DNA from: Euglena gracilis
Taxonomy: Eukaryota
NCBI GenBank assembly: GCA_039621445.1
Contig: CP154954.1
Span: 19,764,642-19,828,641, forward strand
Length of the DNA stretch: 64,000 bases
Direction of reading: 5' to 3'
A program made the translations under genes and the position numbers. The stretch's first letter is position 1. Every line of letters begins with the position of its first letter. The notes below the pieces were generated by a model, which saw only the letters and a program-made list of their open reading frames with translations, ran no database searches and was not told the origin of the DNA. Below are positions 34,901 to 40,900 of the stretch, one piece after another.

Positions 34901-37900
34901 TTTTGGCCAAAATGCCTTCATTTCAGCTCTTTTTGGTGATTTTGGTTTAATTTTGGGTTTATTGTTGGAAATTTGTCTAAGTCCTTTTTCCCTTAGGAAT
35001 GTCACAAACTCAGCGCATTTTTTGCGCATTTTTGCGCATTTTTGCGCATTTTTTCCGAGGGCCGTCCAGCGCATTCCCCCCCCCCCTGATATATACATAC
35101 AGCCAAATTCAGCCATTTTTCCTGTGGATTTTCCATTGGATGTGAAAGGGGCGGATTTTTTTTCCCCGCCCAAGCGCCCTAATTCCATCAATTGAAACGT
35201 CATTTTGATTTTTGTGGAAGCCGCCCAAAATTTTCAGGGCATTTTAAGGTTTTTTTTCTGCCCAATTTTTTTTCAGTTTGTGAGCTGTGCTTTCAGGTCC
35301 ACTGAAAAAAACATTTCTTTTCAAAAAGCTCAGAACCAAGTCTTGTCAACAGCGCACCAACTCGTCAAGCGCCTCATGTTGCAGGCACCGCTTGGCAGAG
35401 TCGTCTACCCTGACTTCTTTCGCCCAGAGACCCAAAGCCAGGGCCCACCAGCTTTCACCGCTGGGGGAGGGGGGGACGGTGACAACGACGGCCAACGTGC
35501 TGTTTGTCCGGGCGTTCCCCAAGCGCACCTGGTTTCCTCTGCGGAGAACCCCTGGACGCTCGGCAACCCAATGGAACAGCCTGGCGGGTCGCACTCATGC
35601 AGGGTCTCGTTGGCGCCCGTCCCAGACATGGGACCAGGGGTTTTTTTTTTTTAGTCTTGGACCCCAGGGGGGAGGGGGGGGGGTGGGGGGGATGGTCCGG
35701 CCGAGCCCCCCCCCCAGGGGGGGGTCCCCAGGGGGGGGGGGGTGGACTGCTGGGGTCGTGGACTGGAGTAACTGGTGCGTCGTCACGGTGAAGGAGACCC
35801 CCCCCTAACTAAAGTGGAGTATGTGCCTGGCAGGCGCTTGGTGGCCGGCGTCGTAAACAAGGTAAGTCCTGCCAGGCTCCGGCCACCTCCACATACACAG
35901 ACAAAAAGGACCAGAGGCGAACAACAGCGCCAGGCCAGACGAAGGGATAAAAGGCACCAAAAAACAGCCACAGTGCACACAGGGGGGGGGGGTATATTTT
36001 TTTCGGCGCCGAAGGCAGCGATTTTTTTTTGAAAAAGGTGCTATTGTTAGCATTTTTTCGCGATTCTTTGGCCTTTTTGGGGGAAAGTGGGTTGGGTCCC
36101 CCGGACCCCCCCCCCCGGGTCTTAAAAAAAAAACCGCCCAGGAACCAAAACGCAAAAACACGTTTTCAGGATGTGTAAGACTTCAGGATCTAAGGCCCCA
36201 GCGCGGGGCCCATAACCATTAGCCCCTTCCGTCCAGAAGACAGGGAAAACAACGGGCAGCATCGACCACCCCGGGCAGTGCTCCTCCCGTAATCGTTCGT
36301 TAGGGCCGGCGGGCCTTGAGGTTGGCTGGTGGGCACAGTTGCTGAACGAGTTCCATCATCAAGTCCTGTATGATGGATTGTAACCAGGGCTCGCAGAGAT
36401 GAGGTCTTGCTTTATTTTGGGAAATTGCCACAACAAGCAAATCAGAGTGGATTGGTTAAAAAAACACAAAAAAAAGTCAAGAAATAAGCAAATTAAGAAA
36501 TAGAACAGTATGGAGCATTAATTGTGGTACACCTCCAATTTTGTGAGCCATAGCCTTTGCCAGCCCATGGGGTGTGGTGATGGTGTGTGCACGTCCCAGC
36601 CAGCTCTGTGGCAGTGTACCCTGCAAAACTGAGGCTCTCCCCCTGGAACACTCCTTCGTTTCTGTATTTCTTGTTTCTCCTTCCCCCGCTCCTTTTTAGA
36701 TGTTATTGCCGATGTGGGTGGGGGGCCGGAAGTCAGGCTTTCCGCCGCCTTGCGTCCCCCAACGATGGTCCGGCGTCACCACACCCGCGGGCCGAGGACA
36801 CAGCGCGTCCGCCCGGCCCTGCCTGCGGCTGAAGGCCAACGCGCCGCACAACGAGGTGGACGGGGCGGTGGACGGCTGTCCCCAGAACCAGAACGGCTGG
36901 GACGCCCCGCCGTACCTGCCCGCAGGTGCGGCCCCCGGGGCGGGTGGGCGGCGGCCTCCGGGCGACGGCCCGACTTGGGCGCTGGCGGGAAAATGGGCTT
37001 GGGCGGCAGCGATGCGGGTAAGGCGTACGCGTTCACAGCCAGCGGGTGGCACAGACCGCGGTAGGACTGAACCCCGCCATAAACTTTTCGACGCAAACGT
37101 CCCGGAAATTGTTTCGGGTTGCCTTTCAGATTTGGCAACCCGTTATGAAAGTCGTCCGGAAGCGCCCATGCGGGAAATTGCTTGTTTTTATTCTTGTTCT
37201 TGTTCTCATTTGTGGAACATTTTTTTTGCTTTGCCCTGGTCGAATGCTGCCCAATGTTCGTGGGGAAGACCAGTTGAGGCTGTCTTCGGAGTGGAGGAAT
37301 AAAAATTGATACAGAAGGCACTGAGACAGTGGCCAATGGTCTCTGTCTGTCTGTCTTTCGCTCTCACTCCCGCTCTGCAGTGCCGCAGGGGAGGCTCAAC
37401 TCGCAGACCAGACCTCCATTTAGTATGTAGCACCAAAAAAATTTTTTACGTATCACATGTATCACAGCCTAAAAATTAATGTATCACATATGTATCACCA
37501 AAAAATTTTTAATGTATCATATATGTATCACCAAAAACTTTTTAATGTATCACATATGTATCACCAAATTTTTAAGAAAATTTTACATTTTTACATCAAA
37601 AATGTTTTTTTCAGCTTCCTGTTCCACTTTTTATCCTTGTTTCTTTGCCTCTCTGCAGACACATGGAACAATTTTCTTGTGATAATGTTTTGTTGGACAA
37701 CTGCACGTTCGTCTGTGAATTTTTCAGCTTACGAATTTGTGTTTCACAACTTTATTATATGTTTCACAAAGGAGAATTTGTGTATCACATATGTATCACC
37801 AAAAATTTTTAATGTATCACATATGTATCACCAAAAAAAATTAATGTATCACATACGTATCACCAAAAAAAATTTAATGTATCACAGATACGTTGTGATA

Positions 37901-40900
37901 CGCACTAAATGGCGGTCTGTCGCAGACCATTTGCATGGCGGCCCGGCCAGGGGTCTTTTTAGTCGTGGACCCCCCCGGGGGGGTGGAGGGTGGGCCCCCC
38001 TGGGTTGTACTTTTCGGCACCGAAGGCACCGTAATTTTTTGAAAAAGTGCTATTTTTAGAATTTTTCGCGAATTTTGGCCTTTTTCGGGGAAAGTTGAGT
38101 GGGTCCCCCGGGACCCCTCAGGGAGTGGGTGGGTGAGGGGGGGGAAGACCCTCCCCGGTCTTAAAAAAGCCCCTGGGCTCGGCACCACGGCAACCGCCTC
38201 CACTACGACCTCCACGCCCTCTACGGCTGGGCCCAGCAGCGGACCACGTTCCTCGCCCTTGCCCGGGGCTGACCGGGACTCCCGAACGCACATGGATGGT
38301 GGGGCCAGGGGTTTTTTTTTAAGCCGGAGGGTACCCCATCCCTGGGGGGGCGTCCAGCCAGCCAGCAGCTCAAATCCAGCCAGCAGCCCAAATTCGGGCT
38401 GGGAGCCCCCCCCCCCCCCGGGGATCGAGTGAAATAAAGTTGGGTCCAGCCAACTGGGCTGCCCAGCTCACCTATCCCTGCATTTTTCCCCTCATCACAG
38501 CTTCCTCCATCACAGCCCCCCAGCCTTGACCTAGCTCCATCCATCAAAATGTCGAGAGGCAAAAATGTTTTAGAAAATTTTTGTTTTTCATCGACCCAGC
38601 CCAGCCCAGCCCCCTCCAGCCCCGGAACCCCCCCCTCCCCCTCCCTGTCCCCCCGGGGGGGGGGTCCAGCCAGCAGCTCATTTACAGCCAGCAGCCTTTT
38701 TGCCAGCCGCAGGCTGGACCCCCCCCCCCGGGGTCCTTAAGAAAATCCCTGGGTGGGGCATACAATCACTTAGTCACTGGCTGACCCCCCCCCCCGGGGG
38801 GAGGGGTGGGTGACTGCTGTTTTCAGAGTGACTGACTGGTTTTTGGCCCGGACTCCCTCCCACCCGGGGGGGGGGGTCGGCAAAAAACCACTAAAGTGAT
38901 CTGGTGCCCAAGGCGCCGGAATTTTTTTGGCTTTTTTCGTGTTTTTGGTCAATTTTACTTTGGATTCCAGAGTGGCCGACCCCCTCCCCCCGGGGGGGGG
39001 GGGGTGACTGACTGGTTTCCCAAAAAAAAAGTGACTGACTGGTTTTTCGAAGAGTGGAGTGACCCCTCCGGCAGTCGGTAAAAAAATTGTGTGATGGTGG
39101 GGCTGATGGGTCCCCCCACCCCCCCCAGGCCTCCCCGGACAGCCGTGCCCTCGCCCAGCAGTGGCGCCAGCGGCCCCTCGTCGTGTCAAGCAGCACCTAC
39201 TCCGGGAGCGGCCGGTACGGCGGGCACTGGATGGGTGTGCCCGCCGTCCTTTTTTTTTGCGCCGAGACCCGGGCGGGAAACGGAGTCTTGACGTGCATTG
39301 AACATCTGAAGGTGGTGTCAAATCAATTCCGTGGGTTTTTATTTTGTCACAGATTCCCATCCCCCCCCTGTTCTGGAGGAATATACAATCACGGCCTCCT
39401 CGGAAGTCATCGTATCCGGTTTGGTGGTTAGCCCGAGGGTGGGGTTACGATGCAGAATGTTTTAAGTTGGGGGGTGGAGGGTCAAATTCACAGTGCAAAC
39501 CTTTTGGGTGGTGGGCATTCGTTCGGTGCAAGATGGGAGGTGTGTCCCCTGCTGTCAGGTGACGTCCGCCCGAACTACACTGACATGGCAGCCACCATCC
39601 CCGGCATCCTCGCCTTCTCCCTGTTCGGCATTCCCCTCGTGGGAGCTGACGTGTGCGGGGATCCGGACACCACAGACGAGGAGCTGTGCGGACGCTGGTA
39701 CCAGCCATGGATTCATTCACCCCGGCCGTGGTAGGGCGCCGGGGTGGGTGGGTTTACGGGTGGGTGGGTGTGCGTTTGGAGCGCTGGACCCCCTTTGGAG
39801 GGACGGGGGGCCCCCAAGGCCGGACATTTTTTTTTCACAGGGTTTTGGCCGCTTGGGGGGGGGGGCTTTGGATGGATGGGTGAGTTTGGTGGGGGAGCGT
39901 GAGTGAGTGGATTTTCAAAAATGGGTTGCAGGGTGGGACTAAACCATTGGCTAAGATATGTCCAACCCCCCCCCCCCAAGGGGTGATGACTAGTTTTTTT
40001 TTTAGAGTGACCCCCAAAAGGAAAGACCAAAAGTGGCGGAAGGGGCTGTTTGGGGGGGGGCATTTGGCCACATTTTGGCCCAATGGAGTGATTGACTGGT
40101 TTTTTGAAACTGGAAAGTGACCACAACCCGGAGTCAGTAAGCAATGGTGTGGTTTGGGTCCAGGAAAAAATACCCCCCGGGGGTTACAAAGTGGGTCTAT
40201 GGGACCAGCTCGGTGCCTTCTACCCCTTCGTCCGCAATCACATTCAAGCTGCAAGTGTGTTAACCATACAATTTCCACTGCTCAAAACTCTCATTGGCTG
40301 ATCTTTGTTTAAAATAATAAATAAATAACTATAAATAAATATCTTCGAGAAAAAGAGAAAATAATTTCATTTTTGTAATCTCCTTTGATTTTCACTCAAG
40401 CGTGCCTCTGAACAGCGTGCTTTGCCGTGCTGTGCTTTGAAGGTCGTGCAGACCATGACCCGGGCCCAACCAGCTACTCCCCGATGCTGCTGACCGTGAT
40501 GAAGGACGCCCTGCTGACGCGCTACCACCTCCTGCCATACCTGTACACGCTGTTCTGGCAGGCGCACGTCTTTGGCCCCCCAGTGGTGCGGGCCCTCTTC
40601 TATGATTTCCCCACCGACGTCATCGCACTCAACACCGAAACGCAATTCCTCTGGTGTCTTTTCCCCGTCCAGGATGAATATATAATTAATTAAACAAAGA
40701 TAAAATAATAATGAATAAATAAACTCAATAAATTTCTAAATAAATCAATAAAAAATGAAAATGAAACAAAAATCAATGACCTCCAAGGATTTTTTTAATA
40801 TTTTTCATCCGTACATTTTTCCACGGCACGGATAGGGAATTCTATTTTGAAAAAGCAACCTGCCTTGGTGAAAAGGTTGTCTTACCTCACCTCCCCTCCC

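What the first reader, a model, noticed from the sequence alone, without database searches (positions are those of the whole stretch)
37401..37927. Near-pristine newborn intron: 16-bp TIR with perfect TSD TCGCAGAC in the GH31 catalytic domain
A 511-bp element with one TIR mismatch and an identical 8-bp TSD interrupts the conserved NSQ-TIC segment. Read-through hits a TAG and no slide position gives GT-AG, so an intact protein requires noncanonical excision. This is the best candidate for a very recent, possibly polymorphic, intron gain.
Basis: partly seen in the sequence, partly recalled or inferred. Interest (0 to 1): 0.85.

Follow-up and report, generated by a model that had tools for sequence, protein, structure and literature searches.

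The report
Transposon-born nonconventional intron in glucosidase-like gene
A 511-base miniature transposon sits inside a coding exon of a glucosidase-like gene and is removed from the messenger RNA by the unusual, non-GT-AG splicing known from Euglena, making it a clean example of how such odd introns are born.

Summary
A 511-bp AT-rich element (37409-37919) has 16-bp terminal inverted repeats (15/16) and a perfect 8-bp duplication TCGCAGAC. It interrupts a + strand GH31 gene. No sliding position gives GT/GC-AG.

The ends fit the published Euglena nonconventional (NC) splicing code exactly: GAC-CAG ... CTG-TCGCA | G. This places the intron at 37406-37924 (519 nt).

Transcript-like contigs (runs the tool only guesses are RNA) from two studies carry exactly 305 nt of exon between 36827 and 39557. 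That excludes retention of the element and equals my exon model, which includes the 25-nt and 20-nt micro-exons. The row for this joint was not displayed, so removal is inferred. The spliced frame aligns without gaps to a 66%-identical relative.

The gene mixes 7 GT-AG and 6 NC introns. The next intron (37945-38180) is another such element with a 7/8 duplication. The window holds six elements with perfect 8-bp duplications, some outside exons.

The code's 3-nt and 5-nt spacers sum to the 8-bp duplication, so splicing restores the pre-insertion sequence.

This is a known kind of intron, and a transposon (MITE) origin has been proposed since 2013. "Newborn or polymorphic" is not shown: a second, about 1% divergent DNA run carries the same left junction.

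The parts
37401..37408 (+). Left copy of the 8-bp target-site duplication TCGCAGAC. The first 5 nt are exon; the last 3 nt (GAC) are the 5' spacer of the intron.
   Evidence: (D12)
37409..37424 (+). Left terminal inverted repeat. It begins with the CAG that lies at intron positions +4 to +6.
   Evidence: (I2)
37409..37919 (.). 511-bp AT-rich non-coding MITE-like element (GC 0.29).
   Evidence: No Pfam family for the read-through frame 37424-38056 (protein 23). Depth of sequence at least 95% alike in DNA run X13 is 32,000-62,000 over the element, against about 40-50 in the single-copy flanks (table 2; the tool warns this is not a copy number).
37424..37568 (+). Left subterminal array: 33-bp unit, 4.5 copies, carrying the TGTATCAC motif.
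   Evidence: all 12 of 12 window matches of TGTATCAC lie inside the element, all on the + strand; 0.75 expected
37781..37886 (+). Right subterminal array: 32-bp unit, 3.3 copies, same motif and same orientation.
37904..37919 (-). Right terminal inverted repeat. It ends with the CTG at intron positions -8 to -6.
37920..37927 (+). Right copy of the duplication TCGCAGAC. The first 5 nt (TCGCA) are the 3' spacer of the intron; the last 3 nt are exon and start with the purine G at 37925.
37406..37924 (+). Nonconventional intron i8 (519 nt), placed by the splicing code. The same mRNA results from any slide of -5 to +5.
   Evidence: length arithmetic; ends pair in the MFE and centroid folds; z -4.74
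37381..37405 (+). 25-nt micro-exon.
37925..37944 (+). 20-nt micro-exon.
36926..37380 (+). Conventional GT-AG intron i7, upstream of the micro-exon.
37945..38180 (+). Neighbouring nonconventional intron i9. It consists of a second MITE-like element (37948-38175; arms 12/14; flanking 8-mers GGCCCGGC and GGCTCGGC, 7/8 identical) and has the same N3-CAG/CTG-N5|G geometry. Related copies lie elsewhere in the window.
30260..40652 (+). The mapped part of the GH31 gene: 14 exon pieces and 13 introns (7 GT-AG, 6 nonconventional).

Best explanation
The element is a hAT-like miniature inverted-repeat transposon that inserted into a coding exon of a GH31 gene in a euglenid-type genome, duplicating 8 bp of target. 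It now serves as a euglenid nonconventional (NC) intron. In the pre-mRNA the two inverted repeats pair and bring the junctions together. The NC splicing machinery, whose components are unknown, reads the CAG at the base of the stem on the 5' side and the CTG on the 3' side. It cuts 3 nt upstream of the CAG and 5 nt downstream of the CTG, in front of a purine. Because 3 + 5 = 8, the removed piece is the element plus exactly one copy of the duplication. The mRNA therefore regains the pre-insertion sequence and reading frame.

Shown here: the anatomy, the fit to the code, the predicted end-pairing, and that the element is not retained in the transcript-like contigs.

Inferred: the exact joint, the RNA-level (rather than DNA-level) removal, the transposon superfamily, and release as a circle (taken from the literature only).
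For: 1. Anatomy. Arms match at 15/16, the duplication is a perfect 8/8, and the element is 511 bp with GC 0.29.

2. Fit to the code 5'-N3-CDG ... CH'G-N5-6 | R (PMC12501133, abstract and sections 4 part 1 and 11 read; passages on spacers). The intron reads GAC-CAG ... CTG-TCGCA | G at slide 0, with no GT/GC-AG at any of 11 slides.

3. Transcript evidence. Contig record 20 of run X20 is 905 nt. The listed joints and piece sizes account for its positions 1-205, and 39558-39699 sits at positions 511-652. That leaves 305 nt of exon between 36827 and 39557. Record 11 of run X15 also has 305 nt before 39558. The 511-bp element cannot fit in 305 nt. My exon model (99 + 25 + 20 + 79 + 82 nt) sums to exactly 305.

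4. Homology. The spliced frame is open for 414 codons. It is 66.5% identical to P0017 over 414 residues, with no relative indel across the junction.

5. Folding. The ends pair in both the MFE and centroid structures, z -4.74, with 0 of 100 shuffles folding as well.

6. Genomic context. The same gene has 7 GT-AG and 6 NC introns. Three NC introns (i6, i8, i9) fit the strict code and i5 fits with a G-U wobble variant.

7. Transposon nature. DNA run X13 shows 1,700-4,100 depth at central, non-tandem positions of the element, against 26-37 at single-copy positions (tables 3 and 4). Six elements in the window carry perfect 8-bp duplications, and no perfect flanking repeat of 6, 7 or 9-12 nt was found. 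At least one of the six lies inside a GT-AG intron (34468-35088 in i4).

8. hAT elements are defined by 8-bp duplications and 5-27-bp inverted repeats (PMC3517528, passages read).
Against: - The joint 37405>37925 was not among the 15 joint rows displayed (611 were not shown). Precise removal therefore rests on length arithmetic plus homology, not on a read seen across the joint.
- The tool only guesses that X15 and X20 are RNA. The raw RNA run X21 has almost no depth here (0.15-0.6).
- No second copy of this element's family lies in the window, and no genome was available. Multi-copy status rests on summed contig depth, which the tool says is not a copy number.
- No transposase was found: 0 of 131 long ORFs had a Pfam hit at E <= 0.001. 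The arm starts CAGAC, which does not fully match the hAT terminal consensus as I recall it.
- Two of the six NC introns (i10, i12) do not fit the strict code.
- No tool named the organism.
Confidence: 0.85

Rival explanations
1. The element is a plain gene-disrupting insertion. It stays in the mRNA and truncates the protein at TAG 37428-37430, so this allele is a pseudogene.
For: Read-through meets a stop. The catalytic nucleophile motif of this GH31 is already substituted, so the gene need not encode an active enzyme.
Against: Transcript-like contigs from two studies leave only 305 nt for everything between 36827 and 39557, less than the element alone. The frame is open for 414 codons once the introns are removed. 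A 66%-identical relative shares the same substituted motif, which points to a conserved and expressed gene.
Confidence: 0.03
2. The intron is removed by the ordinary (or an adapted) U2-type spliceosome using noncanonical dinucleotides, for example AC..AG at slide +1, as proposed for Fritillaria and some dinoflagellates. A separate NC machinery is not involved.
For: AG is available at 37924-37925 at slide +1. The diplonemid paper argues for an adaptable spliceosome (PMC12621601, passages read). The trans-acting factors in Euglena are unknown (PMC12501133, discussion passage).
Against: There is no polypyrimidine tract before the 3' end and no GT/GC at the 5' end. The exact N3/N5 geometry and the purine rule were defined genetically by knock-ins in Euglena (PMC12501133), and this intron meets all of them. 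NC introns are reported to leave as full-length circles, not lariats (PMC11282704, passage citing Guminska 2021; I did not read that paper).
Confidence: 0.08
3. The intron arose by double-strand-break repair with filler DNA, not by transposition. The 8-nt direct repeat is a repair scar, as proposed for the Euglena agilis gapC intron.
For: PMC4770533 (passages read) offers this reading for a strain-specific NC intron with 8-nt direct repeats.
Against: - The arms are 16 bp, immediately adjacent to the repeat.
- Internal sequence is far more abundant than single-copy DNA.
- Unrelated inverted-repeat elements in the window share the same 8-bp flank length and show no other long length.
- Intron i9 belongs to a family with at least four other related stretches in the window.
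Confidence: 0.04
4. The element is cut out of the DNA (transposase-type or programmed elimination) in the transcribed nucleus, and the mRNA comes from the excised allele.
For: A direct repeat at both ends is also the signature of pointer-guided DNA elimination. The contigs cannot tell RNA removal from DNA removal.
Against: DNA contig X13 record 6 carries the filled left junction at ordinary single-copy depth of 31. Transposase excision of hAT elements usually leaves footprints rather than an exact restoration (my recollection, not checked). The published knock-in work shows that such sequences are removed at the RNA level (PMC12501133).
Confidence: 0.02

Closest known systems
Euglena nonconventional introns obeying the code 5'-N3CDG-/-CH'GN5-6|R (Nomura et al. 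2025, PMC12501133)
   Same: No GT-AG ends. CAG at +4 to +6 and CTG at -8 to -6. A 3-nt and a 5-nt spacer, a purine at the start of the next exon, paired ends, direct repeats that make the junction slidable, and coexistence with GT-AG introns in one gene.
   Different: Nothing in the splicing signals differs. This copy still shows an intact 16-bp inverted repeat and a perfect 8-bp duplication. That paper does not discuss either feature and says the origin 'remains unclear'. The phrase 'target site duplication' does not occur in its text (listing).
Euglena agilis gapC intron 4 of strain ACOI 323 (Milanowski et al. 2016, PMC4770533)
   Same: A nonconventional intron with eight-nucleotide direct repeats at its junctions, regarded as recently acquired.
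   Different: That intron was shown to be absent from other strains; presence/absence was not shown here. Its authors proposed break repair. Here the inverted repeats, repeat abundance and sister elements point to transposition.
hAT-superfamily MITEs (for example Mar of Drosophila willistoni, PMC3517528)
   Same: 8-bp duplication, short inverted repeats starting with CAG, a few hundred AT-rich bp, no coding capacity.
   Different: No transposase partner or family consensus was available. The subterminal 32-33-bp arrays run in the same direction at both ends. This element is removed from RNA as an intron.
Introner elements of Micromonas, dinoflagellates and others, and MITE-derived introns of Fritillaria (review PMC11282704; PMC9860276 seen in the listing only)
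   Same: DNA transposons with inverted repeats and duplications that create introns on insertion. The duplication contributes to exact removal.
   Different: Those are removed by the spliceosome using GT/GC-AG (or an adapted spliceosome) with 3-5-nt duplications. Here there is no GT-AG, the duplication is 8 bp, and a structure-guided code applies.

Membership tests
Euglenid nonconventional intron | No GT/GC-AG at any position compatible with the mRNA | tested here: met
   11 slide positions, none conventional.
Euglenid nonconventional intron | 3-nt spacer, then CDG at +4 to +6 | tested here: met
   GAC then CAG at 37409-37411.
Euglenid nonconventional intron | Complementary CH'G at -8 to -6, followed by a 5-6-nt spacer and a purine-initial exon | tested here: met
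   CTG at 37917-37919, spacer TCGCA, exon starts with G at 37925.
Euglenid nonconventional intron | Intron ends base-pair and bring the junctions together | tested here: met
   terminal stem present in the MFE and centroid folds; z -4.74.
Euglenid nonconventional intron | Precisely absent from the mature mRNA | tested here: met
   Indirect. There are 305 nt of exon between 36827 and 39557 in contigs from two runs, equal to the exon model with the intron removed. The alignment to P0017 has no gap there. The joint row itself was not displayed.
Euglenid nonconventional intron | Released as a full-length circular RNA | not tested
   Known only from the literature (PMC11282704 passage). The contigs cannot show it.
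Euglenid nonconventional intron | Host is a euglenid | tested here: inconclusive
   No tool named the organism. The mix of 7 GT-AG and 6 NC introns, and the fit to the code, are the only indications.
hAT-type MITE | 8-bp target-site duplication | tested here: met
   8/8 identical, directly abutting the arms.
hAT-type MITE | Short terminal inverted repeats (5-27 bp) | tested here: met
   16 bp at 15/16. The range is taken from PMC3517528.
hAT-type MITE | Small, non-coding, present in many copies | tested here: inconclusive
   The element is 511 bp with no Pfam hit. Depth in X13 is 50-100 times the single-copy level at central positions, but the tool says this is not a copy number. No second copy lies in the window or in 114 metagenome loci.
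hAT-type MITE | Cognate hAT transposase with matching ends in the genome | not testable with these tools
   No genome is held. None of 131 long ORFs in the window had a Pfam hit at E <= 0.001.
hAT-type MITE | Terminal consensus of hAT ends (recalled as YARNG) | tested here: inconclusive
   CAGAC matches 4 of 5 positions. Five sister elements start with CAGGG and match fully. The consensus is recalled, not taken from any call.
Spliceosomal introner element | Removed by the spliceosome through GT/GC-AG supplied by the element or the duplication | tested here: not met
   no such dinucleotides at any slide.

The most novel reading that the evidence does not exclude
The 3-nt and 5-nt spacers of the Euglena nonconventional splicing code are the two halves of an 8-bp hAT-type target-site duplication. 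On this reading, nonconventional splicing is an RNA-level 'precise excision' that removes any CAG...CTG-ended element plus one copy of the duplication. Every such MITE is then born as a ready-made, harmless intron wherever it lands. The bulk of nonconventional introns (about 72% of introns in E. agilis according to PMC12501133) would be decayed insertions of this one transposon class. I found this 3 + 5 = 8 link in none of the papers I read or listed.
Probability: 0.45. Interest if true: 0.75.

Novelty: new member of a known kind. Interest (0 to 1): 0.5.

Why it matters
The origin of the nonconventional introns of euglenids, which are a majority of introns in Euglena agilis, is still called unclear in 2025. 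The MITE hypothesis dates from 2013 and, in the papers I read, rests mainly on short inverted repeats.

This locus shows the intermediate that the hypothesis needs. It has an intact inverted repeat, an intact 8-bp duplication and a repeated element. It sits in a conserved coding segment, yet it is absent from the transcript-like contigs. Sister elements with the same ends and the same duplication length lie both in a neighbouring intron and outside exons.

The locus also explains why the code uses spacers of 3 and 5: together they equal one duplication. This makes the hypothesis directly testable on the published Euglena assemblies with a simple genome-wide comparison of flanking 8-mers.

Tried and rejected
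- **Whole-genome searches** for the GH31 family and for the element: no genome is held for this window.
- **Word-index protein search** with one exon: no hit.
- **Search with P0017**: only P0017 itself and relatives of 50% identity or less. No protein of this gene is on record, so there was no independent mRNA-derived protein.
- **Rfam search**: only a tRNA, nothing that names the lineage.
- **Metagenome scan with the arm pattern**: at least 114 loci, each with one match. blastn of the element against all 114 gave no hit at E <= 1e-3, so these are chance 16-mers.
- **Sequencing runs**: no listed holder is on record as RNA. X15 and X20 are RNA by the tool's guess only.
- **Raw RNA run X21**: too thin over this gene to show the joint.
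- **Pfam on 131 long ORFs** outside the gene: nothing, so no transposase.
- **Earlier notes of this scan**: none.
- **Empty-site reconstructions** of the other five elements found: no convincing coding frame. I could not tell whether they are introns.
- **A first exon model with an 898-nt intron i10**: this gave 299 nt rather than 305 and was rejected. The 892-nt version fits both the count and the alignment.
- **Supplementary files** of the papers were closed. The sliding-distance figure and datasets of PMC12501133, and Table S3 of PMC4770533, may already bear on the 8-nt claim.

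
Full report
**1. The observation**

The sequence is as described.
- A 511-bp element lies at 37409-37919, with GC 0.29 against about 0.5 for the window.
- Its 16-nt terminal inverted repeats lie at 37409-37424 and 37904-37919. They match at 15 of 16 positions, and the pairing extends to 25 nt at 84%.
- The 8-mer TCGCAGAC abuts both arms (37401-37408 and 37920-37927).
- The arm pattern occurs only at these two places in the window, against 0.06 matches expected; 0 of 100 shuffles reached 2.
- Inside the element, both subterminal regions are 32-33-bp tandem arrays. They carry the motif TGTATCAC, and all 12 window matches of that motif lie in the element on the + strand.
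- Read-through ends at TAG 37428-37430.

**2. The gene**

Pfam places pieces of a GH31 TIM-barrel and its C-terminal domain on the + strand between about 30.3 and 41.9 kb. PDB searches agree.

I laid four public runs on 30000-42500. Transcript-like contigs from two studies (X15, X20) gave these joints:
- 30369>32111, 32255>33048, 33157>33397 and 33455>35383, all GT..AG;
- 35435>36324 (AG..TT) and 36381>36827 (AA..GC).

Further contig pieces lie at 39558-39699 and 40443-40652. The tool only guesses that these two runs are RNA.

The joint over the element was not among the 15 rows displayed (611 were not shown), and only one lay was allowed.

**3. Is the element removed from the mRNA?**

In X20, contig record 20 is 905 nt long.
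- The displayed joints and piece sizes account for its positions 1-205 (35 + 59 + 53 + 58 nt).
- 39558-39699 sits at positions 511-652.
- So exactly 305 nt of exon lie between 36827 and 39557.
- X15 record 11 likewise has 305 nt before 39558.

The element alone is 511 bp, so it is not retained.

I built an exon model from splice signals and homology:

| Piece | Coordinates | Length / type |
|---|---|---|
| exon | 36827-36925 | 99 nt |
| intron i7 | 36926-37380 | GT-AG |
| exon | 37381-37405 | 25 nt |
| intron i8 | 37406-37924 | 519 nt, holds the element |
| exon | 37925-37944 | 20 nt |
| intron i9 | 37945-38180 | nonconventional |
| exon | 38181-38259 | 79 nt |
| intron i10 | 38260-39151 | 892 nt, nonconventional |
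| exon | 39152-39233 | 82 nt |

The exons sum to 305 nt. A first version with an 898-nt i10 gave 299 nt and was dropped.

The joined frame is open for 414 codons. It is 66.5% identical to P0017, a 778-residue protein from an unnamed JGI contig, over 414 residues. The multiple alignment shows no relative indel from the exon before i7 to the exon after i10. The two micro-exons align residue for residue there, including the NSQ|TIC junction.

Precise removal of 519 nt is therefore strongly supported, but it is inferred from length and homology. I did not see it in a read.

**4. How it is removed**

No slide position gives GT/GC-AG. The ends do match the splicing code that Nomura et al. (PMC12501133; abstract, section 4 part 1, section 11 and passages on spacers and discussion read) defined by knock-ins in Euglena. 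That code is 5'-N3-CDG ... CH'G-N5-6 | purine, with pairing of the ends.

Here the intron reads GAC-CAG ... CTG-TCGCA | G. The ends pair in both the MFE and the centroid structure (z -4.74; 0 of 100 shuffles fold as well).

The gene as a whole has 7 GT-AG and 6 nonconventional introns.
- i6, i8 and i9 fit the strict code.
- i5 fits the geometry, with TTG in place of CTG (a G-U wobble).
- i10 and i12 do not fit.

Nomura et al. found the strict code in 61.2% of nonconventional introns.

This mixture of intron types is the hallmark of euglenids, but no tool named the organism.

**5. Is it a transposon?**

*Abundance.* In DNA run X13, sequence at least 95% alike reaches summed depths of 32,000-62,000 over the element. 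The single-copy flanks reach about 40-50. At central, non-tandem positions the depth is 1,700-4,100, against 26-37 at single-copy positions (tables 2-4). The tool warns that this is not a copy number, but the element is clearly repeated.

*Sister elements in the window.*
- Among 49 CAG...CTG pairs with arms matching at 12/14 or better, 4 have identical flanking 8-mers and 2 have 7/8. Among 68 pairs from 10 shuffles, none has 7 or more.
- A survey that did not fix the terminal bases found perfect flanking repeats of 8 nt (3 cases) and none of 6, 7 or 9-12 nt.
- With one more copy found by similarity, six elements have perfect 8-bp duplications: 2748-3186, 24018-24461, 25408-25644, 28858-29120, 34468-35088 and 37409-37919.
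- Two more have 7/8: 37948-38175 and 58970-59254.

*Where they lie.* One (34468-35088) sits inside the GT-AG intron i4. These elements are therefore transposons in their own right, not only introns.

*The neighbouring intron.* The 7/8 element at 37948-38175 is intron i9, right next to the finding. It belongs to a family with related stretches at 25418-25642, 28910-29031, 36000-36109 and 45992-46109.

*Superfamily.* An 8-bp duplication with short inverted repeats starting with CAG is the hAT pattern (PMC3517528, passages read). No transposase is present in the window.

**6. A link that follows from the anatomy**

The left duplication is split into 5 exon nt plus the 3-nt spacer. The right duplication is split into the 5-nt spacer plus 3 exon nt. 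The same split holds for i9. The code's spacers (3 + 5) thus add up to one duplication, so splicing restores the pre-insertion sequence.

I did not find this stated in the papers I read (PMC12501133, PMC3935182, PMC4770533, PMC11282704, PMC11170887, PMC12621601; passages or sections) or in four searches. Supplements were closed.

**7. What is already known**

- Milanowski et al. 2014 (PMC3935182) proposed MITE-like insertions as the source of nonconventional introns.
- Milanowski et al. 2016 (PMC4770533) described a strain-specific E. agilis gapC intron with eight-nucleotide direct repeats and suggested break repair.
- The 2024 review (PMC11282704) speaks of 'TSD-like' repeats and inverted repeats.
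- Nomura et al. 2025 still call the origin unclear.

The finding is therefore a new and unusually intact member of a known kind. It favours transposition over break repair.

**8. Age**

'Newborn' and 'polymorphic' are not shown. X13 record 6 comes from a different study. It differs from the window at 8 letters and 1 gap over 660 nt, yet runs from the unique flank 29 nt into the element (table 8). That is two letters short of the tool's own 31-letter rule for bridging. The insertion therefore seems to be shared by two lineages about 1% apart.

Eight unconstrained duplication positions without a change bound the age only loosely.

**9. Verdict**

- The mechanism is the known Euglena nonconventional splicing.
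- Recency is unproven.

Noticed in passing
window 36324-36381 / 36827-36850 (joint of intron i6): The catalytic nucleophile motif of GH31 (WIDMNEP in the active relatives in the alignment) reads WLKANAP in the spliced product and WLQGNEP in the 66%-identical P0017. The later acid/base Asp (HW.GD) is kept here. This looks like a conserved, probably non-hydrolytic GH31 paralogue.
   Followed up: partly
window 2748-3186, 24018-24461, 25408-25644, 28858-29120, 34468-35088: Five further inverted-repeat elements with perfect 8-bp flanking duplications (CCCCATAC, GCCCAGGG, ATTTGAAT, ATCTCCGG, ATATATAC). Three of the five begin CAGGG; 2748-3186 ends in CAT/ATG and 25408-25644 in CAA/CGG. 34468-35088 lies inside the GT-AG intron i4 and holds the 34569-34819 tandem arrays.
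   Followed up: partly
window 58970-59254: A CAGGG...CCCTG element with a 7/8 duplication (GCATCAAC / GCACCAAC), lying inside long open frames on both strands (58774-60177 +, 59479-60666 -) that have no Pfam hit. It may be another nonconventional intron in an unidentified gene.
   Followed up: no
window 39994-40233: X15 contig record 12 (depth 14.1) runs unspliced from inside nonconventional intron i12 into the next exon, beside the spliced contig (depth 69.8). This is intron-retaining pre-mRNA for an NC intron. It fits the reported late removal of such introns (PMC6221363, abstract seen in the listing only).
   Followed up: no
window 32382-32399 and 35667-35691: Raw RNA run X21 piles up here, with poly-C and poly-G loose ends and an 'opposite strands' joint 32399/35691 in 178 reads (tables 5 and 7). 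These are probably G/C homopolymer tracts of repeated elements, or a library artefact.
   Followed up: no
window 38260-39151 and 39700-40203: Nonconventional introns i10 (direct repeat GCCCT) and i12 (direct repeat ACCAGC) do not fit the strict N3-CDG/CH'G-N5-6 code at any slide. i10 has a CCGGGG/CCCCGG pairing near its ends instead.
   Followed up: partly
window 4140-4211 (-): One tRNA gene, the only Rfam match at gathering score in the window.
   Followed up: no
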